Positions 7,201-42,901 are shown, numbered from the stretch's first letter. The stretch: DNA of 48,396 nucleotides from Candidatus Hermodarchaeota archaeon (GCA_048885865.1 JBHLLF010000022.1:1-48396); one strand, 5' to 3'. The notes: generated by a model not told the origin, from the sequence alone. Numbers and translations are program-made.

Positions 7201-10200
7201 ATAATCCATCATTATCCGTATCAAACCCGACTCCAGACTCCTCGTATTCTTGAGTGCCCTTCGAAGGGCTGAGGTCCCAGGGGCCGCCAGGCTCCCAGGT
7301 CCATGAGTCCCCTTCCTCGAAGAACAGGAAGCGGAACGTGACCTCTACTGTGAATAACAGTCGTAACGTTATCTTCATGGGCGCTGAGGACGCAAAGTCT
7401 TGGAAGAACGTAAGTATGATCTCCATTGAGAGATCGATTATGATTGCCACAATAATGAGGTCGAGTGGTATGTGAACAGTGATGCCAAATGTGATGGCGA
7501 GAGTGAGAGTTGAGACCTCTGGTGCTGTGGCTGAAGCCGCCTTCTTTACAATGTCGAGCTCCACGGCAAGCATGAAGATGATCTTGATCATGTCAAGGCC
7601 AAGGAACTCCATGATTGCAGCCAGAGCGCCGCCACCCAGTCCAGCGGTGAAAATGTCAATGAGTGTGAACTCCTTGCTCAGAGTGATCTTGATGTGAAGA
7701 CCCCACTCAACAACCTTCATGAAGTCCTCGAACGCGAACATGCCGTTCTTGAAGGTGAAGAGGTTGAGGACGAACTTGGCGCTGCCCTCAAAGGCTAGGT
7801 CAAGCCCGAGAAGACTCAGCAGCGTGCCCATGATTGCGTTCTTTGAGGAGTCGAAGCCGCCTACTCCAAGTTCGGCATAGAACTGCGGTGTTATCTCAAA
7901 GAATGAAAAGATGACTTTGAAGAATTCTCCCACATCGTCGATTGAGAACGTGCTACGGGCATCGAATATCAAGCTAGCAATCAGGTCAAACAGGGGCGTG
8001 AGGTCGATATCGAACTCAACACGTATACCCAATGAAATGCTGAGATCAAAGAGTGACCAATCGCCTAGACCAATTGGCAGAGTCGTGGAGTAACCAAGCA
8101 GGTCTGTAATGCCGGCGAAGAGTTCCTTGATGGTGTTCTCAAGGTCATCAAACACCGGATTGAGCAGTCCTCCTAACCAGTCGAAGAGCTTGCCCACAAG
8201 CCACTTCACACCACCTGTGAAGATATCCTTGACCTCCATGAAGAAGGTGAGCAGCTCGCGAAGGGTGTTGGAATCAAAGATGCTGTGCATCAGAGGTTCT
8301 ATGATGTTGAATATCTGATTCACGGTCTCTTGAGGACTGGGCATGGTCTGCGGGTCTAATCCAAAAGCCTTGGGGAAGAACTGTTGTAGGAGCTTCAATA
8401 CTGGGTCCAATGGGACATCATCAAAGTCAGGGATTGTCCCTAGAAGCATCCCTGCAGACATCAGGAGTCCTTGCATGATGCCCTGGAATGACTGACCCTT
8501 TGCCTCCTTGATGAGATTGATGACGCCGGCTGCAATCTCCGACAGCATCTCCAATTCATCTTGATAGGTGCTGAACACGTTCGAAGTGTCCATGAAGTCG
8601 ATAGCCTTCATGACCATGTCAGGAATCGAGCCTAGCTGTGATTGGAAGTCAGAGACCGTCTTGCCTACGAAATTCTTGAGAGCATCCGAGTCAGATACCA
8701 TTGCGATGATGCCAAGAACAGGACCGATGAGCTCGTCTATGGCTTCACCTAGGTCCTGCATCTGAGCAAGTGAAGCATACCCACCATGAGCATATCCAAA
8801 CTCATTGATCACACCGTGGGCAATCTCAAGAATGTCTGGCAGCTGGTTCTTGTTGAATCCTTCATTGTGGAATCCTGCAATCAGAGTGATGATGTCAACT
8901 ATCAGATTCTTCTGGTTGGTTGTGACAATACCAGATACAGCGCCATCAACGATTGTTAGCAGCTCGGACTTGAAAGCATTCACATCCGAGAGAGCACCCT
9001 CACTATAGGTCTTGACCACTGTAAGTAGACTCTGGGTGAGGGAATCAGCGCTCTGTGTTAGTCCTGAAGGCAAGAATTGATTGAGCATGTCAATGACGAG
9101 CTGCATCATGGTGGATGCTTCATAGGTATCAACTAGTTCTACTGCAGTCAGAGCCATCTCGATTACGGCCATGAGATTCGAAATTGCGGTCTCCAGACCG
9201 GTGGTCGAGAAGATGGAACTGAGTAAGTCATCACCCAATTCTGTGATGAATTTGACATAGTCCCCACTGGTTAGGAAGTTGACAGTTGCAGTCACAAAGT
9301 TGACCATTCGCGGAAGCAACGTAGAAATCTGAGGGGATGAAAGTCCTAGTGTGGCAGCTAGAGTCTTGTTCATCACGCCTTCAAGTGCTCTGTTTGTGAA
9401 GAAGCCAAATATCGCATCAAAGACACCTTTGCCCTCTGAAACTACTTCACTGACCAGGTCCCATAGCCCATCATTCACTCCAAGGATGTCAAAGAGAAAA
9501 TCAGTGACCTCTTCAGGGATAACATCAGGTAGCAATGCTACAACAAGATCCCACACAATCTCGAGAATATCGCTGATATCGCCTCTAAGGTTGAACAGAG
9601 CCTTGAGCATGATGTTCAGGTAGTCCTTGAACTCCTCGATGAATGGGAACTCTGATGCTAGAGCTTCGACCACGGACTTGAGAGGCGAGTCCAAGTCAAA
9701 GTCGCTAACTATCCCTACAATTGGCTCAATCACTTCGAAGGCAGACTGGATTGATTCGATTATGTTGGTCGGAATTGTAATCTCGGTCTGTCCTTCGTCA
9801 GCAAGAACTTCAAGGAGGATGTCTATGATATCCCCGATTGGTCCATTCAATGCTGAGAACAGAGGAATTTCTCCTAGACTGAAGTCGCTCGAAGTGACCT
9901 CTGCAGGAGAGCATAGACGTATGGCTGGAGAGAAGTCTTCGGGGAGATTATCGAGAGGAACTTCTGCAAGACTCCCGTCCTCCTGCATCTCGTAGGCCGC
10001 AGGTCTGATAATAGGAGCATGTCGCTCCCACATGTCTTCTGTTCTCTGAGCGAGGGCAAAAGCATCCTCCTCACCGACGAGGTCAACAGGCTCTAGAGTA
10101 CGCCTCACTAGAGTCTCCATGTTGTCCCCATACAGCTTAACAGCCATTGAACGAATGTCCTTTCCTGCATTCTCGTATTTGCTATTGATATGAGCCCTCT

Positions 10201-10759
10201 GTTCGACTATATCTGCAACAGCCCATACATCATAGAGGATTAGGAGTAATCCATCAACCTGCTCGACATTACTATGATGGATGTTCTTATCGAGCGATGA
10301 TAGCCTTGGTGCTAGGGTGAAAGTGTTGCCAGTACCAACCACATGCTGGGTCGACCAATATTCTTTCAATAGCTGGTAGAACTGGCGCCACTCCATATCC
10401 CTGTCTTCGAACACAATATGTCCTAGGTCTGTATTGAGCGCATAGATAGATATCCATGGAGCATCATTCAATCGTGCTTCAACTGTGGTGTAGGATGATG
10501 CAGGTATCAACTCAACATAATTCAGCCTGAATGTCAATATCTCGTATACTGCTTCTGCGACTGCTGTCAATACCTCATCGTTGGGATCATAGAAGATATA
10601 GATAGGATCGAGATCATAGCCCTCAAAGGGCTTCGGGAAGAGCTCCTTATCCGTATCTATCATCTGGCCTGCCCAGACAGCCTGCGGGACATAGCCAATT
10701 ACCATTAGCGTTACAAAAGCAAGAGAAAGAAGTTGAATTCTCAATAATCTCTTATTCAT
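4217..10759 (-). CDS. Giant type I membrane protein with thrombospondin type-3-like (DxDxDGLxD) Ca-binding repeats
   Basis: ORF 4217..10771; ATG 10759 preferred because AGGAGGTG lies 9 nt upstream. N-terminal signal peptide, long amphipathic helical region, beta-rich region, ~26 D[ST]DxDGxxD repeats, C-terminal TM (FPWLLVGIAAGAVFGTVLIGYVG) and Lys-rich tail. Confidence 0.9.
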   Translation of the reverse strand: MNKRLLRIQLLSLAFVTLMVIGYVPQAVWAGQMIDTDKELFPKPFEGYDLDPIYIFYDPNDEVLTAVAEAVYEILTFRLNYVELIPASSYTTVEARLNDAPWISIYALNTDLGHIVFEDRDMEWRQFYQLLKEYWSTQHVVGTGNTFTLAPRLSSLDKNIHHSNVEQVDGLLLILYDVWAVADIVEQRAHINSKYENAGKDIRSMAVKLYGDNMETLVRRTLEPVDLVGEEDAFALAQRTEDMWERHAPIIRPAAYEMQEDGSLAEVPLDNLPEDFSPAIRLCSPAEVTSSDFSLGEIPLFSALNGPIGDIIDILLEVLADEGQTEITIPTNIIESIQSAFEVIEPIVGIVSDFDLDSPLKSVVEALASEFPFIEEFKDYLNIMLKALFNLRGDISDILEIVWDLVVALLPDVIPEEVTDFLFDILGVNDGLWDLVSEVVSEGKGVFDAIFGFFTNRALEGVMNKTLAATLGLSSPQISTLLPRMVNFVTATVNFLTSGDYVKFITELGDDLLSSIFSTTGLETAISNLMAVIEMALTAVELVDTYEASTMMQLVIDMLNQFLPSGLTQSADSLTQSLLTVVKTYSEGALSDVNAFKSELLTIVDGAVSGIVTTNQKNLIVDIITLIAGFHNEGFNKNQLPDILEIAHGVINEFGYAHGGYASLAQMQDLGEAIDELIGPVLGIIAMVSDSDALKNFVGKTVSDFQSQLGSIPDMVMKAIDFMDTSNVFSTYQDELEMLSEIAAGVINLIKEAKGQSFQGIMQGLLMSAGMLLGTIPDFDDVPLDPVLKLLQQFFPKAFGLDPQTMPSPQETVNQIFNIIEPLMHSIFDSNTLRELLTFFMEVKDIFTGGVKWLVGKLFDWLGGLLNPVFDDLENTIKELFAGITDLLGYSTTLPIGLGDWSLFDLSISLGIRVEFDIDLTPLFDLIASLIFDARSTFSIDDVGEFFKVIFSFFEITPQFYAELGVGGFDSSKNAIMGTLLSLLGLDLAFEGSAKFVLNLFTFKNGMFAFEDFMKVVEWGLHIKITLSKEFTLIDIFTAGLGGGALAAIMEFLGLDMIKIIFMLAVELDIVKKAASATAPEVSTLTLAITFGITVHIPLDLIIVAIIIDLSMEIILTFFQDFASSAPMKITLRLLFTVEVTFRFLFFEEGDSWTWEPGGPWDLSPSKGTQEYEESGVGFDTDNDGLSDEYEKEIPGLDWQKVDTDDDGADDKLEVQTIGSDPVIPDTDFDGLLDGEEWELGTNVLWPDSDWDDLTDHEEVKIYGTDPLTQDTDGDHLTDAYEVYTRWNLTQTPTVEYVTIGGVKYDDHTDPLNPDTDSDGLLDGQEGPGGAYYGLDSLYNDTEGSGFDPAPLIFNNGYTHPLDADTDDDSWLQLYDGWIDMQLVDDIILEPDGHEGEPYPMSDGNEVAGFTIILYDDEGEPYEKHVYTNPCNPDTDGDTGVSPEERTNPPPGAWLNSDGYELAQDPPSDPTDGDSDDDGLIDGLEGVLRQDSNHTFYLDPDTDDDGLPDMMDILLGTDPLSPDTDLDMVSDGDEFFIYGTSPTLWDSDFDGLSDGEELYFWHSNPMADDSDGDHLMDGYEVLITGSDPMDEDSDNDGLTDFEEFFIYYTLAFVYDTDGDGLSDGDEILVYDTDPLNWDTDHDSIREPNEYGEMTWPMSDYDEVMIWGTNATGPDSDMDGLDDAIELYVGGWTLYMGTSPRPVAPWLDPIPVNPLDKDTDDDWLIDGSEMMLANVSGLIYPYRAITIIYRFNTSPVLMDTDNDSLTDYQEAIVFTSNPRSNDTDNDTILDWWEIWVYNTSALRDDSDGDGLLDNEETLYEIWPWGPWPPTNWSTGIGTGDNGTIGGYVPPFALSDMPPAAFFPAQPMYPTDATNPDSDGDFLPDGAEVLYYETDPMDVDSDNDGIADTYEFDTDLDALPDGIEFHIGLQGTWGGGFLNPDSDMDGILDGDEYYIYGTDPAKMDSDGDGYSDGLEIVLGLDPLAFTSNQEFDLALAVERGQRSMMILLPTAEQEVYQDAQVAVANFTPFQEMWFRYKYDNGTGWVGNISLEYHAAAGQWRSIDHRWDPGNITLEVFGRNNTGVIHAQTVWFIVQPGETPFPWLLVGIAAGAVFGTVLIGYVGHRRGWWSRVGRRLWMRRARADAAKEVKKEKDAKAKPKKTKTSEKEIKKKTGPKKGEGGGR
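4840..7224 (-). repeat. Protein-level TSP3-like repeat array (~26 units, often 22-23 aa)
   Basis: DTDNDGLSD, DTDFDGLLD, DSDFDGLSD, DSDNDGLTD, DTDGDGLSD, DSDGDGYSD etc., with GTDP/T-N-P linkers. Confidence 0.9.
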
Positions 10760-10771
10760 GTGCCCATGCAC

Positions 10772-10988: not shown

Positions 10989-13625
10989 CTATTTGGCGCC
11001 GCCTTTTGCGCTTATCTGACGAAGAACGACCTGCACCAAAATATCTTCACCAAGCTTGATCTGATGCAAATCAGCTTCACCATCGAATACTGTGCCATTG
11101 CACATCCTAAAGCGCCATCTGAATACATTCTGTAGCCCAAGGATTGCTGATTCAAGAACAGCTGCAGTTCTCTTCTTTGATGATACACCACCCGGTTGAA
11201 CTCGAGGGGATATGTCCCACAGATGCTTTCCAACAACATCTGTCTTTTTACAGCCAAATATCCGTAGTGCTGCTCTGTTGAAATCAATGATTTCTGCATC
11301 CCGGAGCAATATAATAGGTTCTTCAAATGAAGAAAAGGTCAACCTATATTCCTCAACACCTTTGCTGATTGCTTTCTGTAGTGACCTGATTCTTGTGACA
11401 TCATGCACCAGGATTTGGAGTGCAGGTGAACCTTCATACAATATCCTAGATGGATAAATTCGATATTGGACAACATGTCCGTTTCTGTGCAAGTACTCAT
11501 CCTCATAACCCTGGGGAGGAGCATCTAGGCGTCCTTCAAGGATGTCATTCAAGGTTTCGAGGGAACCAGCAAGGCTCCGAGGATGGACAACCTCCGTCAG
11601 CCAGTCTTGACCCATCGTGGTTAGTTCTTCTGGACTGTACCCAGAAACCCTAGTCATCGCTGGATTTGCATACACAATTCCAGGCGGAGTGCCCTGTACT
11701 ATGACAAGAGGCTGGTTGCTGGACTCAATCATAGTGCGGAACTTCTCCTCACTGCTCCTTAACTTCAATTCAGCTTTGTGGCGCTCTGTGATGTCCTGAA
11801 GATGTGCGAGATAAGATGTCACAGTACCAGTTCCCTCTACTCCAAGTGCAGAACCATTGATTTGAAGATAGATGGGATCCAGTTTTGTTGTCCTGAATCC
11901 AGCATCTCTCAAGTCATACTGCAATTCAAAACTGATGACCACGCCTTCCTCAATATCTTTCAAGACCCAGTCTGGCAAATTGGGATCTTCTTTCAGTACA
12001 TATTCGGTATAGTCACTTGGCTGTCTCACGCCAAGGATTTCCATTGCCGCTTGGTTTAGCTGCCTTATTCTTCCTTCTGAATTGAATAGAACGATGCCAA
12101 TGGGAGATGCCTCGAATAGGCTTCGGAACCATGACTCGCTGGCCCGAAGCGTTTCTTCAGCCTCTCGCTGCTCAGTTATATCGACTTCTAGGGACTGCAT
12201 TGCTCGCATTCCATCATGCTCAATAATATTCACATACGAGTCTACCCATCTCACTTCACCATTGGGCTGCATATAGCGAAATCTGTGCCTAGGAAGCTCA
12301 CTTGCCCCTTCATCTACAGCTTTGTTTCGCTCTTTCAATTCAGGAATATCATCAGGATGAACCATGCCCCATGTGTCCTTCGCAGACATAGAAAGCAGTT
12401 CTTTCACTGATCTTCCGACAATCTCAGCATATGCAGGATTTGCGAACAATATTCTTCCTTCACTCAATATCACAATACCCTGAATCGACTCATCAACAAG
12501 TCGACGATATCTCTGCTCGCTCCTGTCAAGGGCAGCCATCATAAGTTTCTCACTAGTTATGTCTAGAATAGTTCCCGCTGCTCGAAGGGGAGTCCCCTGA
12601 TCGTCTCTCTCGGCAACCTGTCCCCGGTCAAGAACCCAAATGTATTTGCCATACTTGTTCTTCATCCGGTACTCAGAGGAGTAATTGTTGGACTTACCGT
12701 CTACATGGTCATTCCAAGATTCCGTAGCCATTTTCACGTCATCAGGATGGATAAGGTCCTCCCATTTATCATCCAAGGAATTCATTTCATCAAGAGTATA
12801 GCCAAGCATCTCAGCATACTGCGCGCTGAATTCCATTTGCCCAGTTTTATGATGCCAGTCCCACGGTGCCAGGTTTGCTCCTCTAAGTGCAAGATCAAGT
12901 TTCTCCTGACTGATTCTCAGAGCCTCCTGAGCACTCCTCTGAGAAGTGATGTCTCTTACCACCGAATATATGCTCTCCCCATCGTCATGGAGGCTCATTG
13001 TCACTGAGAACCAATAGGTCTTCCTTCCTATCTTCAGAGAGTATTCAAAGGCATCCGCTTGTCCAGTTTCCTTAACTTTCTCTGCGAGCTCAACGGCCTT
13101 TTTGTTGACTTCTTGGGGAAGTACATCTCTCTCAGCGAGCTCAGTCGATATCTCGAATGTTGTTGGGACAAAGAATCTAGCGCGGGACCTGAGATACATC
13201 CCCCGAACCCGCTTTGCCCCTCTAGCATCTTCTGCTGGCGGTGGATATTGCTCGACAAGACCTTGCTCCAAGAGCTTTCTCAGATGATAGTAGCATTTGA
13301 ATACAGACACATCAAGTTCAGGACTAGCCTCGTTGATCTGATGAAGAATCTCCTGCACATTCATCCAATAGCGAAGGGATGGCGTCTTGACGGTTATCTC
13401 TTCAGTCAACACCGTGCCATCTTCGAGTGTCCTCTCGCTCCGTGTAATTGCGATGTCGAAGCTCTTCTGCCCTGAATCGAGAGCGCGAAGAATCGCACGC
13501 CTTGTAGGGTGATAAAGTGAATCTCTTTGATCACTCGTTTCCAGCACCAAGAAGCTCAATCGTTCAGATTCTGGAAACTCAGGTAATTCAGGACTATGGC
13601 TCGACATTTTGTGAGAATCCTCCAT
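10989..13625 (-). CDS. One-component sensor: N-terminal ArsR-like wHTH plus multi-PAS array (1 partial + 5 PAS), no kinase domain
   Basis: HPTRRAILRAL...CYYHLRKLLEQGLVE (wHTH); PAS/PAC motifs WDW..FS..YAEMLGY, IHPDD, VHPDD and several DIT/DVT ends. The track start TTG 13703 lies in the AT-rich promoter; ATG 13625 or 13607 is more likely. Confidence 0.88.
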   Translation of the reverse strand: MEDSHKMSSHSPELPEFPESERLSFLVLETSDQRDSLYHPTRRAILRALDSGQKSFDIAITRSERTLEDGTVLTEEITVKTPSLRYWMNVQEILHQINEASPELDVSVFKCYYHLRKLLEQGLVEQYPPPAEDARGAKRVRGMYLRSRARFFVPTTFEISTELAERDVLPQEVNKKAVELAEKVKETGQADAFEYSLKIGRKTYWFSVTMSLHDDGESIYSVVRDITSQRSAQEALRISQEKLDLALRGANLAPWDWHHKTGQMEFSAQYAEMLGYTLDEMNSLDDKWEDLIHPDDVKMATESWNDHVDGKSNNYSSEYRMKNKYGKYIWVLDRGQVAERDDQGTPLRAAGTILDITSEKLMMAALDRSEQRYRRLVDESIQGIVILSEGRILFANPAYAEIVGRSVKELLSMSAKDTWGMVHPDDIPELKERNKAVDEGASELPRHRFRYMQPNGEVRWVDSYVNIIEHDGMRAMQSLEVDITEQREAEETLRASESWFRSLFEASPIGIVLFNSEGRIRQLNQAAMEILGVRQPSDYTEYVLKEDPNLPDWVLKDIEEGVVISFELQYDLRDAGFRTTKLDPIYLQINGSALGVEGTGTVTSYLAHLQDITERHKAELKLRSSEEKFRTMIESSNQPLVIVQGTPPGIVYANPAMTRVSGYSPEELTTMGQDWLTEVVHPRSLAGSLETLNDILEGRLDAPPQGYEDEYLHRNGHVVQYRIYPSRILYEGSPALQILVHDVTRIRSLQKAISKGVEEYRLTFSSFEEPIILLRDAEIIDFNRAALRIFGCKKTDVVGKHLWDISPRVQPGGVSSKKRTAAVLESAILGLQNVFRWRFRMCNGTVFDGEADLHQIKLGEDILVQVVLRQISAKGGAK

Positions 13626-13747
13626 AGGAACGCGGAGACCCCATCCATTTTGTATAATGCAATAGCGTATAATAATTTTGGGTATTAATTTACTCTTTGC
13701 CAATTACTCAATATACTAATGCACAACATTTAAATTATAATAGATAT

Positions 13748-13769
13748 TTATTGCAATTAGTTGCAATAA
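13748..13769. promoter_or_regulatory. Palindromic operator candidate TTATTGCAA-ttag-TTGCAATAA in a divergent promoter
   Basis: Perfect 9-bp inverted arms, just downstream of a TATA-like TTTAAATTATAA (13729-13740), between two wHTH genes. Confidence 0.7.
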
Positions 13770-13791
13770 GCACCTAATAGGATGTATTCGA

Positions 13792-14598
13792 ATGGGTGAG
13801 CTGAAAATGCTCGAAACTAATGACAAAGACATTCTCAATGAAATGGGACCGACCCCAAAGGTCATACTCCAAGTTCAGAGTGACGAGCAGAGAAGAGCGC
13901 TCAGTCATCCAGCTAGGAAGCAAATCCTAAGTGTGCTTAGAAATGGAGTCGTAGACTTCACTACAGAAATCAGAAGAGAAGAGAAGACACTCGAAGACGG
14001 CACTGGACTGACTTACATGGTCGAGGTGAAGAGTCCAGCAATGCGATACTGGATGTCTGTGCCTGAGATCATGAAGCGTGTCAACGAAAGATTTCCGGAA
14101 TCTGAGATAACCAATTTTCAATGCTACTACCATCTTCAGAATCTACGTGATCATGGTCTAGTTGAACAATATCCCACCACTGGAGATATTGACGACGAGG
14201 AATCTTCGAAACGTGTCAGAGGCTTGCGATTCCGGACCTCTGCCCAATTCTTTGCTGTAGGAATCCAAGGGGGCTCACTGAAGGATTCAAACAGATTCTT
14301 CAGTATCCTCAATAATGAGCTTGGGGTAATCCTATCTGAAGAAGATAAGGACGCACTGGTCGCACTCCTCAATCAGCAAGACAATACTCTTTTCATTGCA
14401 CAAGAGTATCTCGCTGGTTTTCTGAGTGATACTGATTGCGTCATTTTGCCAATCATTCTAGAAAGACTCGCCCATGCTTTACTCTCTCAAGATCAGCGGT
14501 TCATAGACCGCTATCGAGCAGTGAAGAAGTTGCTTGACCGTTCAGGTGCGACATTTTCAGAGCTTGAAAATCTAGAGACAATGAGGGATGCAGAATGA
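13792..14598 (+). CDS. ArsR-like winged-helix transcriptional regulator, paralog of the N-terminal domain of the divergent PAS protein
   Basis: HPARKQILSVL...YWMSVPEI...CYYHLQNLRDHGLVEQYP, followed by a helical C-terminal domain. Confidence 0.85.
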   Translation: MGELKMLETNDKDILNEMGPTPKVILQVQSDEQRRALSHPARKQILSVLRNGVVDFTTEIRREEKTLEDGTGLTYMVEVKSPAMRYWMSVPEIMKRVNERFPESEITNFQCYYHLQNLRDHGLVEQYPTTGDIDDEESSKRVRGLRFRTSAQFFAVGIQGGSLKDSNRFFSILNNELGVILSEEDKDALVALLNQQDNTLFIAQEYLAGFLSDTDCVILPIILERLAHALLSQDQRFIDRYRAVKKLLDRSGATFSELENLETMRDAE

Positions 14599-15116
14599 GA
14601 AACGTTACAACAGGTGGGAATGTACACAAAACCGTTCTCTTGGGAGAGGGCGGCGTTGGGAAGACCAGTATAACGCTTCGGTATACTGAGGATCGGTTTG
14701 AGGAAAATCTGAAGATCACTATCGGAGCGAACTTCGCAACAAAACAAGTCCTCGTCGGCGAGGAAATACACACTCTGATGCTTTGGGATCTTGGTGGCCA
14801 GCCTCGATTTCGGGATGTAGTGAGTGGCTACTTTCGCGGAGCCAAGATTGCCATTGCGGTCTATGATGCCACTAGGCCGGTCTCATTAGATCGATTGACG
14901 GATTGGATTGAGCGTCTGAAAGAGGAGGCTCCGGATTGCCAACTTGTCTTTGTTGGAAACAAGAAGGATGCTCGAAATAATGGGAATGGTGTGGCGCTTC
15001 AAGAAGGAATTGAATTTGCTCAGAGGTACAACTCACCATGTTTTGAGGTATCAGCAAAGAGTGGTGAAGGCGTCAATGAGCTGTTTGAGATTGTTGCTAA
15101 TATTATGGCAAATTAG
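14595..15116 (+). CDS. Rab-like small GTPase (Ras superfamily)
   Basis: G1 GEGGVGKT, G2 T(IG), G3 WDLGGQ, G4 NKKD, G5 SAK. RabF-like motifs IGANF, LMLW, RFRDV, YFRGA, VYDAT. No C-terminal Cys prenylation motif. ATGA overlap with the upstream gene. Confidence 0.95.
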   Translation: MRNVTTGGNVHKTVLLGEGGVGKTSITLRYTEDRFEENLKITIGANFATKQVLVGEEIHTLMLWDLGGQPRFRDVVSGYFRGAKIAIAVYDATRPVSLDRLTDWIERLKEEAPDCQLVFVGNKKDARNNGNGVALQEGIEFAQRYNSPCFEVSAKSGEGVNELFEIVANIMAN

Positions 15117-15134
15117 AATCATGGAGGATCATAT

Positions 15135-15395
15135 ATGCCAAGGACAAAACTGAATCCATTCCAGTGTCCCGCTTGTGGCAACGGAAGTTTAGTTGAGATT
15201 GAAATTGATGAGAGAATAATAACTGAGGCTGAACGACTGCCAGCGGTTGTGACAACCAATTGCGGGAAGAACCACACACTAGTTGTATTCGTTGATGGGA
15301 AGTTCAAGATTAGGGACATTGAAGTTGCTTCAGCTATGGAAGGCGATTCTAAGGATGCCTTCACAAACACGGAGGACTGGTTCGGTTCGTTCTAA
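15135..15395 (+). CDS. Small Zn-ribbon protein (CxxC...CxxxH)
   Basis: CPACG...CGKNH; GGAGG SD upstream; in operon with the GTPase. Confidence 0.8.
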   Translation: MPRTKLNPFQCPACGNGSLVEIEIDERIITEAERLPAVVTTNCGKNHTLVVFVDGKFKIRDIEVASAMEGDSKDAFTNTEDWFGSF

Positions 15396-15444
15396 TTGCA
15401 AAATCACGATAACACAGTCACAAATCATTCGGAGTTTAGACGAA

Positions 15445-15888
15445 ATGTACGGTATAATGTTGGTAAACCATGCAGGTGAAACAGTTGCCTCAGTCGGTTG
15501 GGAAAACCTTGAGGGCGATGCGACCCTGTTTGGCGGCTTCCTCTCTGCGGTTCAGATATTCATCAAGAAGATTTCTGGAGGCACTGAGGTTGAAGAACTA
15601 CGATTCGGCAATATGAAGCTCGTCATCGGGAGCTCGAATGAATACCATGTTGTCACGCTTCATGAGGCCAATGCGAAAAAGGCGATTTCTGAGAACCGCA
15701 AGGTCACAGAACTCGTTGAAGAAAACATCGATGGACACCAAACGGACGGCTTTCTTGACCTGGTCAGAGAGATGATAACCAGAGATATGGCCTCAGATGA
15801 AGACGTCAGCAGAAGTGTGAAGGATTGGACAAAGTCAGTTGAAGACAAGAAGAATGCTGCAATTGACTGGGGAAAGACTGTGTTGTAG
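15445..15888 (+). CDS. Longin/roadblock-like domain protein
   Basis: From ATG 15445: MYGIMLVNHAGETVAS...DATLFGGFLSAVQIFIKKISGG..VEELRFGNMKLVI..YHVVTL, a beta-beta-alpha-beta-beta-beta-alpha pattern typical of longin domains. Confidence 0.75.
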   Translation: MYGIMLVNHAGETVASVGWENLEGDATLFGGFLSAVQIFIKKISGGTEVEELRFGNMKLVIGSSNEYHVVTLHEANAKKAISENRKVTELVEENIDGHQTDGFLDLVREMITRDMASDEDVSRSVKDWTKSVEDKKNAAIDWGKTVL

Positions 15889-15900
15889 GGTGTGTAAACC

Positions 15901-17274
15901 ATGGGGTTATACGAAACTACTCAACTCTATCTAGGATTAGCGGTTCTATTTGCTGCCCTGACAATTATCCGGTATAGCAGAAGCAAGTCTGCAGAGCTGG
16001 GTGCAGATCAAAAGAGCGCAATAAAGCCGCTGTATATCATAGCATTCGGCATTTTATTCTACAGTCTGGGTGCGCTTTCGATATACATCGAAGACACGCT
16101 GGGAATCTGGATTCTCTTCGACACATACATGGCATACTATGCATGCGCGATGGTCGAAGTGATTTCATTAAGTGTCGCAGCGGTAATGATAATGAACTCT
16201 AGGCGACTATATGCAATACCTGTTGCAATCACCATGGCAACCTCTGTTTTATTCGGTTCTGCATTTGTGTTCGAACAAACGACCGAGTTCCTGTGGGTGG
16301 CTGGATTCTTCCTTCCAGCAATTGTCCTCGTCTTTGTTGGAGGAGTATTCGTCTGGATTGCAAGGGGCACTGGCCGAAGCATCAGTGCCGCGCTTTCTTT
16401 TGCACTAATCACCCAGATTGCAGGATTGCCTGTCATCTACTTCAGCTCAATGCTTGGATCAGAGTTCATCTACACTTTATTCATTGTGCTTATGGGGCCT
16501 GCAATGATTGTATTCTCTTTCCTCCGCCCAGACCAGAAAGTGTCCTTTGAGCTGGTTGGGTATGGAGCAAGCTTTGCGGGACCAGCTATAATCATTGCAG
16601 GCCTCCAAAATGCTGGACTAACCACAGACCCATACTTCCTTGCGATTGCTGGAATGGGGGCGATAGCAGTGCTCTTCTCTCTTGGAACTGGTGCGTATCT
16701 ATATGGCAGATGGAGAGATTCTGGACAAATCCCAACTGGACTTATGATGACTAGTTTCTTCCTGTTGGCGGTTGGACAAATCTCGGGGATGCTAGGCAAC
16801 TTCGAGGTGATTCCCAGTCCAGATGCGTTCTACATCGAATTCATCTTGACTGGCTACGCCCTTGCAATTCTCGCAGTTGGAGCAATCTATGCTGCAGGGT
16901 GGAAGACAGCAGGGCTGGTGCCGATACTGGCATATCTGCCGATTTCAATCATGACGATTCAGGCATATCCTGCAGACATTGCGACAGTCTTCATGAATCT
17001 GATGTACATCACTGTGCCAACCATCGGGATTATGATACTTCCATCTCTGATCTTTATCGGCGTATGGTGGAAGATGCGCTCTAGACAGGCTCCAGGAAGG
17101 TTGCGTCCTTTGGGAGTGGCCCTGGCCATTTTCCTCTTTTTTGCCATCAGACTACCCCCTCTCATCGCTGAGCTCAGCGGTCTCGATTACGGCTACGGAT
17201 GGGTAGTCCTGAGTTTTGGAATGTTCTGGACAGCGCTGACAGGGCGCCTTGACAGGATTGCTGGGACTGTCTAA
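15901..17274 (+). CDS. Polytopic membrane protein, ~15 TM, apparent tandem of two 7TM-like units
   Basis: 457 aa with ~15 hydrophobic segments; basic loops after TM1/TM5 (RYSRSK, ARGTGR) recur after TM9/TM13 (GRWRDSG, KMRSRQ). Confidence 0.8.
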   Translation: MGLYETTQLYLGLAVLFAALTIIRYSRSKSAELGADQKSAIKPLYIIAFGILFYSLGALSIYIEDTLGIWILFDTYMAYYACAMVEVISLSVAAVMIMNSRRLYAIPVAITMATSVLFGSAFVFEQTTEFLWVAGFFLPAIVLVFVGGVFVWIARGTGRSISAALSFALITQIAGLPVIYFSSMLGSEFIYTLFIVLMGPAMIVFSFLRPDQKVSFELVGYGASFAGPAIIIAGLQNAGLTTDPYFLAIAGMGAIAVLFSLGTGAYLYGRWRDSGQIPTGLMMTSFFLLAVGQISGMLGNFEVIPSPDAFYIEFILTGYALAILAVGAIYAAGWKTAGLVPILAYLPISIMTIQAYPADIATVFMNLMYITVPTIGIMILPSLIFIGVWWKMRSRQAPGRLRPLGVALAIFLFFAIRLPPLIAELSGLDYGYGWVVLSFGMFWTALTGRLDRIAGTV

Positions 17275-17284
17275 TATGACTCAA

Positions 17285-17335
17285 AGAAGTGGGAGTCCCA
17301 TGGGCTCCTCTTCTGCTTTCTCTTTCTTCTTCTCT
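17285..17335 (+). terminator. Hairpin plus pyrimidine tract ending the GTPase operon
   Basis: AGAAG.GGGAG.CCC-AT-GGG-CTCC.CTTCT followed by GCTTTCTCTTTCTTCTTCTCT, 10 nt after the stop. Confidence 0.55.
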
Positions 17336-17487: not shown

Positions 17488-17781
17488 ATGGACTTCTCAG
17501 AAAACGAAAGATCATATGAGGAGATGATTAGAGTCATCTCGCCGCCGCATTGTGCACGAGGGCCCAATAGATGTGATGCATGCGCGGAGGCGGCTAAAAC
17601 CAAGGTCATTTGCTTGGTCAGAGTATATCTCGATCCAGGACAGTTTGCAAGACCAATCATGGAGCTGTCGAGGGATGGAGACACCTCATATTACGAATTT
17701 GATGTCGTCAGACGATTCGAAACCGAAGCTGAAGCAATAAAATACGCACTAGATAATGGAATCGAAGATATTGAAATCTAA
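17488..17781 (+). CDS. Small hypothetical protein with HC-x6-CxxC putative metal-binding motif
   Basis: 97-aa ORF, PPHCARGPNRCDAC, globular composition. Confidence 0.7.
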   Translation: MDFSENERSYEEMIRVISPPHCARGPNRCDACAEAAKTKVICLVRVYLDPGQFARPIMELSRDGDTSYYEFDVVRRFETEAEAIKYALDNGIEDIEI

Positions 17782-18014: not shown

Positions 18015-19829
18015 ATGCGCGTATATCTAGATGCAAACTTCTTCATCAGCGGTTTCAGCAACCGACCGAAAGATGTCTTCATAGTGAAGGAGGCGGCTGA
18101 AAAGGCAGGAATGGAACTCTGGGTCACTCGCCAGGTCTTTCAGGAGCTCAGATGGTACCTGAGAAGGGAGGCAGAGCAAGTAGTCCAGATTGATGAAACC
18201 CTCACAAAGGACATCAAGGAACTGATGGAGAGTATCAATAAGCCTGAAAGTTCTCTTCCTCAGCACAATGACATGTCTCTCATTCTTGGGGCAATGAGGG
18301 TCAAGAAGTCTAAGATCGTCACTAGTGACCTTAAGTTACTCAATACCATTCAAGACATCCAGGTGGACGTGGAAGGAATAGTTGGTTCGGCGTTTGTTCT
18401 TGAGCTCATGGAATCCATTGATGATGAGGGACTAAAGAACAAGCTATCAGTGCTGCGTGAGAGAATCTATGGCGAGGAAGTGAGATATAGTATCTCGCGC
18501 CAAGAGGCCTATGATCCCGTCACAAGAATTAGACTCATAGAGGAACATGCGCTCCGTGTACTTAGGGCAGTCAAGGCACCTGCAGAAGGGTTGGATAGAC
18601 AGCTTTCAAGGGGACAGCCGCTCTTTATTCTTGATTTCCTCGAGGACATCAAAGCTGGAATTCCCACGATGTTTGAGGATTTCCGAAATGGCAAGTACAA
18701 CACACTAGCCCTTGAGATTGAAGCCATTCAAAACGAGATTGAACGACTACTCATAGTTTCCACACTCACCAACGATTCAGACACTCATTCGAAGCTTGTT
18801 CAACATGCATCGGACTTGACGCTGTTTCTCTATTACTTGGAAATGATTTGTCACCTTTATCGTGGAACCAGGCAGGGCATTGAAGAGGCATTGGTCATCT
18901 CCGACGAGGCATTCAGACTCCTAATGTTCGCTGGGGTGTCCAATGATGAACTCAAAGCAAGCGTGTTCTTTGTTCGTATCGTTCTAGCAATGATCCGTGA
19001 GGACTATGATGAGATTGACTACTATTATTCCCTTTACGACTCAATGATTCGAAGGGTGGGACTCGAGGATATGATTGAGACCTCAGAAGGCCTATACGTC
19101 ATCATGCAGGTCTTGAGAGAGTTCATGGGTGGCTTCTCTCTCACAAAGAGCAAGCTCCAATATCCATCTGCAACTCTTGCTTTATTGAGCGATATCGCAA
19201 AACATGCAATTCAATTTGATGAGCACGATAATGCCTGGCAATTGGTTGTGACTTCATACAAGGTCGGTGTGGCGTATGGCAAGGAAGAAGGGGCTCTTGC
19301 ATCTTTCCTCATGCTCTATAAGATCTCATCCTCATCGCACGACAGATTCAAGCCAGCTTTGGAAAAGATTGCCGAGCATGCGCTCAAGATGTTTGTGAAG
19401 AAGGGCTGGGACACATCAAAAATAACTCCGATTCTGAACGAGATTCAAGGCAATTTGCCGCCCATTGAAGACATGACTACAAAGGAGCCAGTAGATTTGG
19501 AGGAGCTGCCTGATGAAGTTTGTAGTTGGATGGATGTCTTATCAGTGGAAACAATAAACGACAATACGACACTTGTTGTTAGGAATGAGCAGCTTCAGGT
19601 CAGAATCGGGATAGATATCATGAAACAGCCCGAGCTTGGAAACTTGAAGACAGGCCACAAGGTAGCTCTGATTGGTGGAAAATTCAGCCTAGCGAATGCA
19701 GATCCAGAAGTGGTGGATAAATACGCTGTCATGCTCATCATAACTCCTGGCGATGATTCAGAGATCTCCTATGAGGGCGAGTATGGTTTTAGCTGGCTCA
19801 AAATCGCAGAACCTGAACCTGAAGTATAA
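18015..19829 (+). CDS. PIN-domain nuclease fused to a helical (TPR-like) region and a C-terminal beta domain
   Basis: RVYLDANFF, VFQEL, NDMSLI and IVTSDLKL supply the four PIN acidic residues; ~350 aa helical middle; beta-rich C-terminus. Confidence 0.8.
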   Translation: MRVYLDANFFISGFSNRPKDVFIVKEAAEKAGMELWVTRQVFQELRWYLRREAEQVVQIDETLTKDIKELMESINKPESSLPQHNDMSLILGAMRVKKSKIVTSDLKLLNTIQDIQVDVEGIVGSAFVLELMESIDDEGLKNKLSVLRERIYGEEVRYSISRQEAYDPVTRIRLIEEHALRVLRAVKAPAEGLDRQLSRGQPLFILDFLEDIKAGIPTMFEDFRNGKYNTLALEIEAIQNEIERLLIVSTLTNDSDTHSKLVQHASDLTLFLYYLEMICHLYRGTRQGIEEALVISDEAFRLLMFAGVSNDELKASVFFVRIVLAMIREDYDEIDYYYSLYDSMIRRVGLEDMIETSEGLYVIMQVLREFMGGFSLTKSKLQYPSATLALLSDIAKHAIQFDEHDNAWQLVVTSYKVGVAYGKEEGALASFLMLYKISSSSHDRFKPALEKIAEHALKMFVKKGWDTSKITPILNEIQGNLPPIEDMTTKEPVDLEELPDEVCSWMDVLSVETINDNTTLVVRNEQLQVRIGIDIMKQPELGNLKTGHKVALIGGKFSLANADPEVVDKYAVMLIITPGDDSEISYEGEYGFSWLKIAEPEPEV

Positions 19830-20925: not shown

Positions 20926-22047
20926 GTGAATCGCCCTTCAAAGGAAATCCCTGATGGAGCCAGAGTCATGTACAAGGCTTTGGTTCTTGGAGTCAATTCC
21001 GCTCTGCAAACAGGATTTCTCAATATTGCTTCGGAAGGCACTGTAGCATATCAGCTGCACTCCACAGTTGGAGTAGGCATTGGAGTATCTAGGAGTAGGC
21101 TAGACGATGGTGGAGAAGCGGTACTCCAATTGTGGGCATTGCCCATAACTGAAAGGTTTCCAGGCCTCACTCAAACATTCATGAGAGGGCACAGGGGGGC
21201 GATAATTGTGTTAAGACCAAAAGAAGCAGACTCATTCCTTGATTTGTATAAGGCTCTCACTGAGAAGTCTAGAGCATTCCTGATTGTGGCTATTGTAGGA
21301 AACAGTCAAGGAACTGAAGAAGCGCTTAAGCACATTGCAGATGTAATGGGAGTTCAACCCTTAGTTCGCCATTTGGAAAGCGTTGGAGAAACGATAGGCG
21401 CACTGGCCTCCATGTTGCGAAGTGGCGATTCCAATAGAGACCTCCCGTTCATCGCACTGTTGACCGAAGATGCATGTCCCGCCCAACAACCAATTTCCAG
21501 TCCTAATCAATTGCCTCCGAATTCGAATGAGGAAATGATGATAATCAAGGAGAACGCTGAGGCATTTGGGATCAGCTCAACAAGCACACATTGTATTCTG
21601 GAACTTGATGAAGGAACCATGAAGATTGAGATTTCAATGGGAGAGGCCATTCTTGAACCAGTGATATGCCGGTATTGTCTCAAGAAATGCGTGCGGAGGT
21701 CGAAGATCTGTATTGTAGGAACAGATGCAGGATGGTCATCAGAAGACCTTGGTACAAGAGCGTTGTTGACCTTAGCAAAAATCTACGCACTAGCAACTCG
21801 AGAGATTCCAGACCACGTTGAGAAGCAGCTATACCGAGCCTCAAGATGTTCAAAAATCGAGCTGCCCAATGACTTGAGCAGCAAGCCACTCCTTGAGGAA
21901 AGACTCACGAGGCTAGGATATATCAAGAAGGGAGTCTCCTGGACACTACTGGATGAAGCCAACCGTAGATTGCAAGACGGCAGGCTTTCCGAGATTGATT
22001 ACGAGTCTATTGCTAGAAGAATTCAATCTCAAGAACTAGACCAGTAG
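20926..22047 (+). CDS. Rab-fold pseudo-GTPase with Cys-cluster domain and SHOCT-like C-terminus
   Basis: YKALVLG...STVGV...LQLW....ERF..L...FMRG..GAIIV is collinear with Rab but lacks GxxxxGK, DxxG and NKxD; CRYCLKKC....IC; LLDEANRRLQDGRLSEIDYE. Confidence 0.7.
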   Translation: MNRPSKEIPDGARVMYKALVLGVNSALQTGFLNIASEGTVAYQLHSTVGVGIGVSRSRLDDGGEAVLQLWALPITERFPGLTQTFMRGHRGAIIVLRPKEADSFLDLYKALTEKSRAFLIVAIVGNSQGTEEALKHIADVMGVQPLVRHLESVGETIGALASMLRSGDSNRDLPFIALLTEDACPAQQPISSPNQLPPNSNEEMMIIKENAEAFGISSTSTHCILELDEGTMKIEISMGEAILEPVICRYCLKKCVRRSKICIVGTDAGWSSEDLGTRALLTLAKIYALATREIPDHVEKQLYRASRCSKIELPNDLSSKPLLEERLTRLGYIKKGVSWTLLDEANRRLQDGRLSEIDYESIARRIQSQELDQ

Positions 22048-42783: not shown

Positions 42784-42901
42784 TCTAACGTCTCCTCCAA
42801 TAGATGCAGTGTGACCCATACTGCTCCTGAATTGAACTCAGCTGAGGATGTAAGAGAGTCGTCTCTCCCACATATTAAACAAATGGGTGAATATTGATTC
42901 C

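What the first reader, a model, noticed from the sequence alone, without database searches (positions are those of the whole stretch)
10989..17335. Candidate self-contained Asgard signalling module: PAS-wHTH <-> wHTH, Rab-like GTPase, Zn-ribbon, longin, double-7TM membrane protein
Seen: five co-oriented genes with gaps of -4, 18, 49 and 12 nt, ending at a hairpin terminator and sharing a divergent promoter with a PAS-array regulator. Known: longin domains form GEF/adaptor modules for Rab-family GTPases in eukaryotes (Mon1-Ccz1, TRAPP), and Asgard genomes encode both. Inference: a receptor-like membrane protein, GTPase, longin partner and dedicated transcription factors form one regulated circuit, a prokaryotic membrane-receptor/small-GTPase switch under PAS control. 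I know of no description of this gene set.
Basis: partly seen in the sequence, partly recalled or inferred. Interest (0 to 1): 0.85.

Follow-up and report, generated by a model that had tools for sequence, protein, structure and literature searches.

The report
Asgard receptor-like GTPase switch operon
This Asgard archaeon (a close relative of eukaryotes) keeps a Rab-like GTP switch in one conserved operon with a longin protein, a small zinc protein and a membrane protein built from two receptor-shaped seven-helix bundles, and this copy also has its own repressor gene and DNA binding site, so the likely partners of an archaeal signalling switch can be named and tested.

Summary
The core is four genes: Zn protein, longin, 15-helix membrane protein and Rab-like GTPase. 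The Zn-longin-membrane triad is contiguous in 57 loci from Thor-, Hermod- and Atabeyarchaeia, with the family GTPase adjacent in 54. This genome has three copies. The longin fold is confirmed (Z 12.6). The membrane protein models as 7+1+7 helices: two homologous, parallel, GPCR-shaped bundles. It has a conserved basic cytoplasmic face, variable outer loops, and no kinase, retinal lysine or conserved buried charge. Longin binding that depends on the membrane protein has only weak modelling support (0.36 vs 0.01). The wHTH and wHTH-PAS regulators are not core: 7 of 57 loci. It is unique in the genome, kept in five orthologous loci, and co-varies with the wHTH recognition helix. So PAS control is most likely transcriptional. 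Best model: a kinase-free membrane sensor/scaffold that, through longin and Zn protein, recruits and switches a lipid-less GTPase. GEF versus GAP, ligand and output are unknown. I found no published description; this scan has noted the cassette in many other genomes.

The parts
10989..13625 (-). One-component regulator: N-terminal wHTH (47% identical to the adjacent wHTH) followed by 5 full PAS domains and a partial one; no kinase or receiver. Accessory, type A loci only. Probable start ATG 13607 or 13625 (longest ORF runs to 13703).
13729..13736 (+). Archaeal TATA box of the operon promoter, with a conserved upstream BRE-like block; back to back with the wHTH-PAS promoter
   Evidence: alignment of 7 type A intergenic regions; position; function inferred
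13748..13769 (.). 22-bp palindrome (TTATTGYAA-N4-TTRCAATAA) centred on the predicted transcription start: candidate operator of the wHTH repressor
   Evidence: only match in the 3.58-Mb genome even at 3 mismatches (shuffles: 0 at <=1 mismatch, 3-15 at 3); in 5 of 7 type A loci at <=1 mismatch, a different palindrome at the same place in a sixth; co-varies with the wHTH recognition helix
13792..14598 (+). wHTH transcription factor (HTH_20/ArsR-like, with a long insert and a helical C-terminal domain), first gene, overlapping the GTPase start; probable autorepressor; type A loci only
14595..15116 (+). Rab-like small GTPase, G1-G5 intact, catalytic Gln kept, no prenylation tail; member of a cassette-specific clade
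15135..15395 (+). 86-aa Zn protein (CxxC...CxxxH) of a widespread Asgard domain family with no Pfam family above cut-off, with a conserved Trp-bearing amphipathic C-terminal helix; candidate GTPase-binding adaptor
15445..15888 (+). Single-domain longin protein with a C-terminal Trp-bearing amphipathic helix; candidate GEF/GAP platform or adaptor
15901..17274 (+). 457-aa membrane protein of 15 helices: two homologous parallel 7TM bundles of GPCR-like fold joined by one linker helix; N out, C in; conserved basic cytoplasmic face; no soluble domain
17285..17335 (+). Hairpin followed by a pyrimidine-rich tract; probable terminator (hairpin alone not significant)

Best explanation
The four core proteins form one membrane-attached small-GTPase switch. 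The 15-helix protein is a kinase-free sensor/scaffold. Its variable outer half takes a small or membrane-borne cue, and its conserved inner face holds the longin. The longin, with the Zn protein, recruits the lipid-less Rab-like GTPase to the membrane and sets its nucleotide state (GEF about 45%, GAP about 30%, nucleotide-state effector/adaptor about 25%; my estimates). The output lies outside the operon. In this paralogue subtype an added layer controls how much of the module is made. The first gene (wHTH) represses the operon by binding the palindrome over the transcription start. The divergent wHTH-PAS paralogue, with a near-identical DNA-binding head, relays a cytoplasmic small-molecule or redox cue by competing for the site or by heterodimerising. 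SHOWN (computationally): gene order and its conservation, folds, topology, conservation asymmetry, GTPase clade, operator. WEAKLY SUPPORTED: longin-membrane protein contact. INFERRED: sensing, GEF/GAP role, role of the Zn protein, repression, PAS input.
For: Synteny: the Zn-longin-TM order is kept in 57 loci; the GTPase is adjacent and co-oriented in 52, adjacent on the other strand in 2, cut off by a contig end in 2 and absent in 1. It sits 5' in 22 loci and 3' in 30, so it stays linked through rearrangement. The membrane family is in 44/87 Thorarchaeia-class genomes, and full cassettes occur in Hermod- and Atabeyarchaeia. All 56 cassette GTPases fall in one branch (SH-aLRT 99, quick tree), apart from most other GTPases of the genome. 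TM model pLDDT 88; C-half matches GPCRs (ADGRL3 Z 16.3, rmsd 3.8, 206 aligned); both halves match bacterial 7TM sensor domains in the Atlas; the halves are homologous (hhalign E 1.9e-6). All 8 cytoplasmic segments are more conserved than all 8 outer ones (mean entropy 1.75 vs 2.87 bits), and conserved charges lie only in loops or at helix ends. Longin fold: synbindin Z 12.6, Sec22 Z 12.3. Longin-TM pairs duplicate together (L051, L105). Four-chain prediction, longin as partner: weak support, ipSAE 0.36 vs best control 0.01. The score is lost when the membrane protein is swapped; runs agree in >=76% of contacts, partner pLDDT >=62. The mark was reached by 58 of 80 solved and 2 of 110 mismatched pairs, but at <=0.60 by only 7 solved and both mismatches. 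Other Zn-domain genes also sit beside GTPases (C27, C1, L134). Asgard Rabs lack lipid anchors, and matching them to regulators from gene layout was called difficult (PMC10933270). Operator.
Against: No ligand-binding or catalytic signature identifies the membrane protein as a receptor. A GPCR-like bundle also occurs in a transporter (Ost-alpha/beta, Z 12.1), and Z of about 13-14 can arise for helical bundles by common arrangement. One longin cannot by itself copy the heterodimeric longin platform of Mon1-Ccz1 or TRAPP (established knowledge). Zn-longin pairs with the same Trp tails occur without an adjacent membrane protein or GTPase (L129, L131), and one triad lacks the GTPase (L104). No effector is encoded in the operon. 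The genomes are related, so counts are not independent. The operator/helix co-variation rests on 7 loci.
Confidence: 0.5

Rival explanations
1. Adaptor/anchor module without sensing. The membrane protein is a passive docking site or cargo. The longin acts like AP-sigma/zeta-COP or SRX, binding the GTP-bound GTPase as an effector, so the GTPase controls where the membrane protein or a membrane process is placed (proto-coat or sorting logic).
For: AP sigma/mu, COPI delta/zeta and SRX longins are among the structural matches. Conservation is confined to the cytoplasmic face, and the outer loops are short and variable, which fits docking as well as sensing. The GTPase has no lipid tail.
Against: A duplicated 7TM bundle that resembles bacterial sensor domains is elaborate for an anchor. 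Up to three divergent paralogues per genome with strongly diverged membrane proteins (26-43% identity) and conserved GTPases (58-68%) fit diversified inputs feeding a common switch.
Confidence: 0.22
2. The membrane protein is a transporter, channel or lipid flippase, and the GTPase, longin and Zn protein regulate it (signal flows from GTPase to membrane protein).
For: An internal duplication into two bundles is typical of transporters. Ost-alpha/beta shares the fold, and Foldseek's weak best rows are LYCHOS and MurJ (E >= 0.02).
Against: The two repeats are parallel, not inverted; no conserved charge lies in the membrane core and the outer face is not conserved; there is no transporter Pfam match in 23 members; the Foldseek rows have TM <= 0.26.
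Confidence: 0.13
3. One reading: PAS array, wHTH pair, GTPase, longin and receptor form one closed loop in which the GTPase output acts on the wHTH factors, as proposed for some actinobacterial G-protein systems.
For: wHTH and GTPase genes overlap or nearly touch in 6 of 7 type A loci. The operator is unique in the genome, so the regulators are dedicated to this locus. Distant Zn-domain homologues are fused to wHTH domains with sub-threshold DUF742 (CvnC) matches.
Against: 50 of 57 cassettes have no wHTH/PAS pair, including all Hermod- and Atabeyarchaeia copies. A regulator with a single local site cannot be the general output of the switch.
Confidence: 0.1
4. Co-regulated neighbours that do not form one complex.
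For: Operon linkage alone does not show binding. Zn-longin pairs occur without the other two genes.
Against: The order is kept across three Asgard classes, the GTPase stays attached on either side, the cassette duplicates as a unit, and the GTPases form their own clade.
Confidence: 0.05

Closest known systems
Actinobacterial conservons / G-protein systems (CvnA-D, Mfp; PMC13343842, PMC13621833, PMC4316618)
   Same: Four-gene operon, several paralogous copies per genome: membrane sensor, two small regulators (one of the longin/roadblock superfamily) and a small GTPase; no effector in the operon.
   Different: The sensor is a kinase-free double 7TM, not a histidine kinase; longin instead of MglB roadblock; Zn protein instead of DUF742; Rab-like instead of MglA-type GTPase. 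No component is an orthologue.
Eukaryotic longin GEF/GAP platforms (Mon1-Ccz1, TRAPP core, BLOC-3/CPLANE; GATOR1, FLCN, C9orf72-SMCR8)
   Same: Longin fold (synbindin/TRAPPC4 is the best match, Z 12.6) tied to a Rab-like GTPase.
   Different: A single small longin with no tri-longin, DENN or Bet3 partner; tied to a polytopic membrane protein; activity untested.
GPCR fold (adhesion/class B2, class C) and bacterial 7TM sensor domains (HisKA_7TM and related)
   Same: Seven-helix bundle, N out and C in, short helix after the last TM, conserved inner loops.
   Different: Two bundles in tandem; 5-12% identity and no Pfam match; no ectodomain, kinase or cyclase; the candidate partner is a Ras-superfamily GTPase with a longin, not a heterotrimeric G protein.
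Asgard roadblock-Rab-DENN operon (Liu et al., 10.1101/2020.10.19.343400) and Thor-Rab (PDB 7EZB, PMC10933270)
   Same: Asgard operon that pairs a Rab-like GTPase with a longin/roadblock-superfamily regulator; the GTPase is Rab-like and has no prenylation tail.
   Different: No DENN or LAMTOR1-like protein; has the Zn protein and the membrane protein; a different GTPase clade; narrower range (Thor, Hermod, Atabey).

Membership tests
Rab-like small GTPase (Ras superfamily) | G1-G5 motifs, switch I Thr, switch II Gln; closest to Rabs | tested here: met
   PF00071 E 1e-40; motifs invariant in 42 members; best solved relatives Rab18, Thor-Rab, Sec4
Eukaryotic Rab (strict) | Hypervariable tail with C-terminal prenylated Cys | tested here: not met
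   The window protein ends right after the G domain; only 3 of 42 have any Cys in the last 5 residues
Longin domain | beta-beta-alpha-beta-beta-beta-alpha-alpha, no N-terminal helix (unlike roadblock) | tested here: met
   Model topology; top 8 structural matches are all longins, Z 10.5-12.6; Fuz_longin_1 only below cut-off
Longin GEF platforms (Mon1-Ccz1/TRAPP) | Longin heterodimer that catalyses nucleotide exchange | not testable with these tools
   Only one longin gene in most loci; needs biochemistry
GPCR | 7TM bundle, N out and C in | tested here: met
   Model, structural match Z 16.3, positive-inside pattern; helical-bundle caveat applies
GPCR | Sequence membership of a 7tm family | tested here: not met
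   No relevant Pfam/NCBIfam match for the protein or 23 homologues
GPCR | Ligand-triggered GEF action on a G protein | not testable with these tools
   Receptor-GTPase contact was not scored; no heterotrimeric subunits in the operon
Microbial rhodopsin | Retinal-binding Lys in helix 7 | tested here: not met
   No Lys in TM7 or TM15 of the window protein and no conserved buried charge
HisKA_7TM-type sensor kinases/cyclases | 7TM sensor fused to a kinase or GGDEF output | tested here: not met
   Shape similar (Atlas feature lead only 0.84) but no soluble domain in any member
Conservon / AGPS | CvnA histidine kinase | tested here: not met
   No kinase in the cassette
Conservon / AGPS | CvnB MglB-type roadblock and CvnD MglA-type GTPase | tested here: not met
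   Longin topology; Rab-like GTPase
Conservon / AGPS | CvnC DUF742 | tested here: not met
   The Zn protein has no DUF742; only distant fusions show sub-threshold matches
Conservon / AGPS | Sensor + two regulators + GTPase in one multi-copy operon | tested here: met
   an organisational likeness only
Asgard roadblock-Rab-DENN operon | DENN protein and LAMTOR1-like roadblock | tested here: not met
   Neither gene is in the cassette
Autoregulated archaeal wHTH repressor | Palindromic operator between TATA box and start codon, over the transcription start | tested here: met
   (sequence only)
Autoregulated archaeal wHTH repressor | Binding and repression | not testable with these tools
   Needs EMSA or in vitro transcription

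The most novel reading that the evidence does not exclude
An archaeal, GPCR-like signalling system: a tandem GPCR-fold receptor that, on binding a ligand, directly triggers nucleotide exchange on a Rab-like GTPase, using a longin and a Zn protein as coupling subunits whose Trp-bearing C-terminal helices plug into the two bundles (as G-alpha's last helix does in GPCRs). This would join the GPCR fold, longin GEFs and Rab-like switches in one pre-eukaryotic machine.
Probability: 0.2. Interest if true: 0.92.

Novelty: new variant of a known kind. Interest (0 to 1): 0.7.

Why it matters
Asgard genomes hold dozens of Rab-like GTPases and longins. Which acts on which, and how GTPases without lipid tails reach a membrane, is open, and gene layout was thought to be of little help (PMC10933270). 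This cassette names one GTPase, its two small partners and its membrane partner, all small enough to reconstitute. It thus makes the ancestral role of longins (GEF, GAP or adaptor) and the membrane targeting of pre-eukaryotic Rabs directly testable. If the membrane protein is a receptor, kinase-free 7TM-to-GTPase signalling existed in archaea. The operator gives a ready DNA probe and a way to find the inducing cue through the PAS protein.

Tried and rejected
Pfam and NCBIfam gave no family above cut-off for the longin, Zn or membrane protein. PDB sequence searches with the longin and Zn profiles gave only noise, and Foldseek on the whole membrane model gave no match at E <= 0.001. No RNA holder was listed, so co-transcription was not tested. 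In the complex job, the control that kept longin, Zn protein and GTPase but swapped the membrane protein scored 0.01. That is no support for a longin-GTPase or longin-Zn interface in that run, and no evidence against one. No contacts were returned, so the idea that the Trp tails plug into the bundles is untested. The formal one-clade test and the careful tree did not finish; only the quick tree is cited, and two long-branch GTPases inside the clade may be artefacts. PAS genes next to L104 and L121 are unrelated receiver-PAS-kinases, so they were not counted as the regulator. A longin domain in Zn-domain fusions: P0056 scored 11.0 bits vs 3.8 for shuffles (hhalign not significant) and P0048 (contig C27) was not detected, so it is not claimed. 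Single ~265-aa 7TM relatives in two other Asgard families had no cassette genes beside them in the stretches fetched (one has a longin-like gene about 4 kb away). The sigma-70 promoter scan is not suited to archaea and matched chance. The hairpin's stability is not significant. Rhodopsin, sensor kinase and conservon membership were rejected (see membership test). Seven literature searches found no description of this gene set; the library lacks most subscription papers.
Full report
OBSERVATION. The window is contig C22 of a 3.58-Mb genome. Homologues of its proteins are labelled Thorarchaeota. The five + strand genes and the gaps of -4, 18, 49 and 12 nt are as described. The divergent gene is a wHTH followed by five full PAS stretches with no kinase. 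Its wHTH is 47% identical to the adjacent wHTH gene. Orthologues indicate a start at ATG 13607 or 13625, so the intergenic region is about 170-185 bp. The hairpin after the last gene is real but not more stable than shuffles (z -1.15).

WHAT IS CONSERVED. The genome itself has two more copies of the GTPase, Zn protein, longin and membrane gene set (C11, same order; C6, GTPase last), neither with wHTH or PAS genes. The membrane protein family was found in 44 of 87 genomes of the class. Full-length matches also occur in two other Asgard families, identified as Atabeyarchaeia and Hermodarchaeia. The loci were fetched by the membrane gene alone. In them the order Zn protein, longin, membrane protein is contiguous 57 times; the other full-length cases are cut by a contig end or are a second longin-membrane pair behind a full cassette. 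The family GTPase is adjacent and co-oriented in 52 (5' in 22, 3' in 30, including all Hermod and Atabey copies), adjacent on the other strand in 2, cut off in 2, and absent in 1. All 56 cassette GTPases lie in one branch (SH-aLRT 99, quick tree). The branch also holds two neighbouring duplicates and two long-branch GTPases of this genome, which are the two that sit beside other Zn-domain genes. The wHTH and wHTH-PAS pair occurs at only 7 loci, one subtype. So the four genes are the system and the regulators are a subtype-specific addition. The genomes are related, so these counts are not independent tests.

THE PARTS. GTPase: PF00071 E 1e-40, G1-G5 invariant, catalytic Gln kept, nearest solved relatives Rab18, Thor-Rab and Sec4, no prenylation tail. 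Longin: the model has longin topology over residues 1-115 (mean pLDDT 67, tail poorly predicted). Its top eight structural matches are all longins (synbindin Z 12.6, rmsd 2.6, 114 aligned; Sec22 12.3; VAMP7 12.2). Zn protein: invariant CPxC and C, near-invariant H. The domain is widespread in Asgard (180 of 301 genomes), with no Pfam family above cut-off. Elsewhere it is found beside other GTPases (C27, C1, L134) or paired with a longin (L129, L131). Both the Zn protein and the longin end in an amphipathic helix with a near-invariant Trp 5 or 6 residues from the end (47/50 and 50/53). Membrane protein: 15 helices plus a short C-terminal helix, pLDDT 88. Residues 1-212 and 240-457 are homologous (hhalign E 1.9e-6), joined by one linker helix, so both bundles face the same way. 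The C-half superposes on GPCRs (ADGRL3 Z 16.3, rmsd 3.8, 206 aligned; rank 50 still Z 11). Predicted-structure neighbours are bacterial 7TM sensor domains and stand-alone ~220-aa 7TM proteins, for both halves. Identity is 5-12%, and helical bundles can reach Z 13-14 by common arrangement, so this is a fold likeness, not family membership. Lys/Arg counts give N out, C in. All eight inner segments are more conserved than all eight outer ones (1.75 vs 2.87 bits). Conserved charges (E217, R270, R402) lie in inner loops, and there is no buried charge or retinal Lys. This is the pattern of a protein with a fixed cytoplasmic partner and a variable or absent outside ligand.

BINDING. One four-chain prediction with the longin as scored partner gave weak support: ipSAE 0.36 against a best control of 0.01, runs agreeing in at least 76% of contacts, partner pLDDT at least 62. 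The mark was reached by 58 of 80 solved complexes and 2 of 110 mismatches, but at 0.60 or under by only 7 solved ones and both mismatches. The score fell to 0.01 when the membrane protein was swapped, so the modelled contact involves it. This agrees with longin-membrane gene pairs duplicating together, but it remains weak.

Aligning the seven type A intergenic regions shows a conserved TATA box (13729-13736) followed 11 nt later by a 22-bp palindrome, 13748-13769, centred where transcription should start. Its consensus, derived from these loci, matches once in the whole genome even at three mismatches (shuffles give 0 at one mismatch and 3-15 at three). It is present at 0-1 mismatch in five of seven loci. 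These five have IT[N/S]xQCYYHL in the wHTH recognition helix. The two loci with a changed or degenerate palindrome have a Lys at that third position. I infer that the first gene is an autorepressor with a single target. The divergent wHTH-PAS paralogue would add a cytoplasmic cue by competition or heterodimer formation. 'PAS control' therefore most plausibly acts on expression of this copy, not on the nucleotide cycle.

MECHANISM. Best model (0.5): a kinase-free membrane sensor/scaffold holds the longin on its inner face. Longin and Zn protein recruit the lipid-less GTPase and set its nucleotide state, and the output is encoded elsewhere. GEF is a little more likely than GAP or effector: longins serve all three roles in eukaryotes (own knowledge; see titles). 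Rivals: passive anchor or cargo with an AP/SRX-like adaptor (0.22); regulated transporter or flippase (0.13); closed loop with the wHTH proteins as output (0.10); mere co-regulation (0.05).

COMPARISON AND NOVELTY. It is organised like actinobacterial conservons (sensor kinase, roadblock GAP, DUF742 GEF candidate, GTPase; PMC13343842) but fails every component-level test of membership. It differs from the published Asgard roadblock-Rab-DENN operon. PMC10933270 states that MK-D1 GTPase genes are generally not in operons with longins, which makes partners hard to match. A recent preprint lists GPCR-like and 7TM Asgard structure clusters, with no mention of this cassette in the passages I read (10.64898/2026.10.28.762692). 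I found no paper on this cassette. This scan has noted it in other genomes and on this genome's other contigs; these are unchecked AI notes, not support. I checked synteny, folds and papers myself. Verdict: a real, conserved, apparently unpublished system; a new variant of operon-encoded prokaryotic GTPase signalling; interest 0.7. The boldest reading, direct GPCR-like activation of a Rab-like switch, has about 0.2 probability and would merit about 0.92.

Noticed in passing
L002 promoter (G000 C6:100254-100293; also L047, L048) and C14:67047: The type C copy has its own doubled palindrome (TCCCATWATGGGA) right after the TATA box. The only other exact genomic match lies about 80 bp from the open frame of a GTPase-like gene on C14 (67129-67758), so these may share a regulator. 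Not conserved outside close relatives.
   Followed up: partly
L134:4482-6058: Another Asgard three-gene run: small GTPase, Zn-domain-wHTH fusion (sub-threshold DUF742), V4R/TRAPPC3-like protein. It links the same Zn domain to a GTPase and a Bet3-fold protein.
   Followed up: partly
L129:488-2070 and L131:5001-6665: Zn protein plus longin, both with the Trp tails, followed by a membrane-anchored nuclease-like (weak DUF2130) gene instead of the 15-helix protein.
   Followed up: partly
L085, L086, L087, L088, L089, L090, L124: Stand-alone 262-270-aa single-bundle relatives of the membrane protein in two other Asgard families (6/6 genomes of one), weak DUF5985 match; possible unduplicated form.
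   Followed up: partly
G000 C27:31595-33103 and C1:27513-28557: Divergent GTPases each adjacent to a Zn-domain gene; both fall (on long branches) in the cassette GTPase clade.
   Followed up: partly
window 4217-10771 (-): 2184-aa secreted, C-terminally anchored protein with many Asp-rich calcium-binding (thrombospondin type 3-like) repeats and a long helical N-terminal region; 2554-aa and 2586-aa ORFs lie at 27398-42819 (-).
   Followed up: no
window 18015-19829 (+): 604-aa PIN-domain protein with a long helical region and no adjacent antitoxin; not syntenic with the cassette in relatives.
   Followed up: no
window 20926-22047 (+): Degenerate Ras-like domain (no intact P-loop) fused to a Cys-rich region: possible pseudo-GTPase.
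   Followed up: no
window 17488-17781 (+): 97-aa Cys-rich ORF after the terminator; absent beside the cassette in the relatives fetched.
   Followed up: partly
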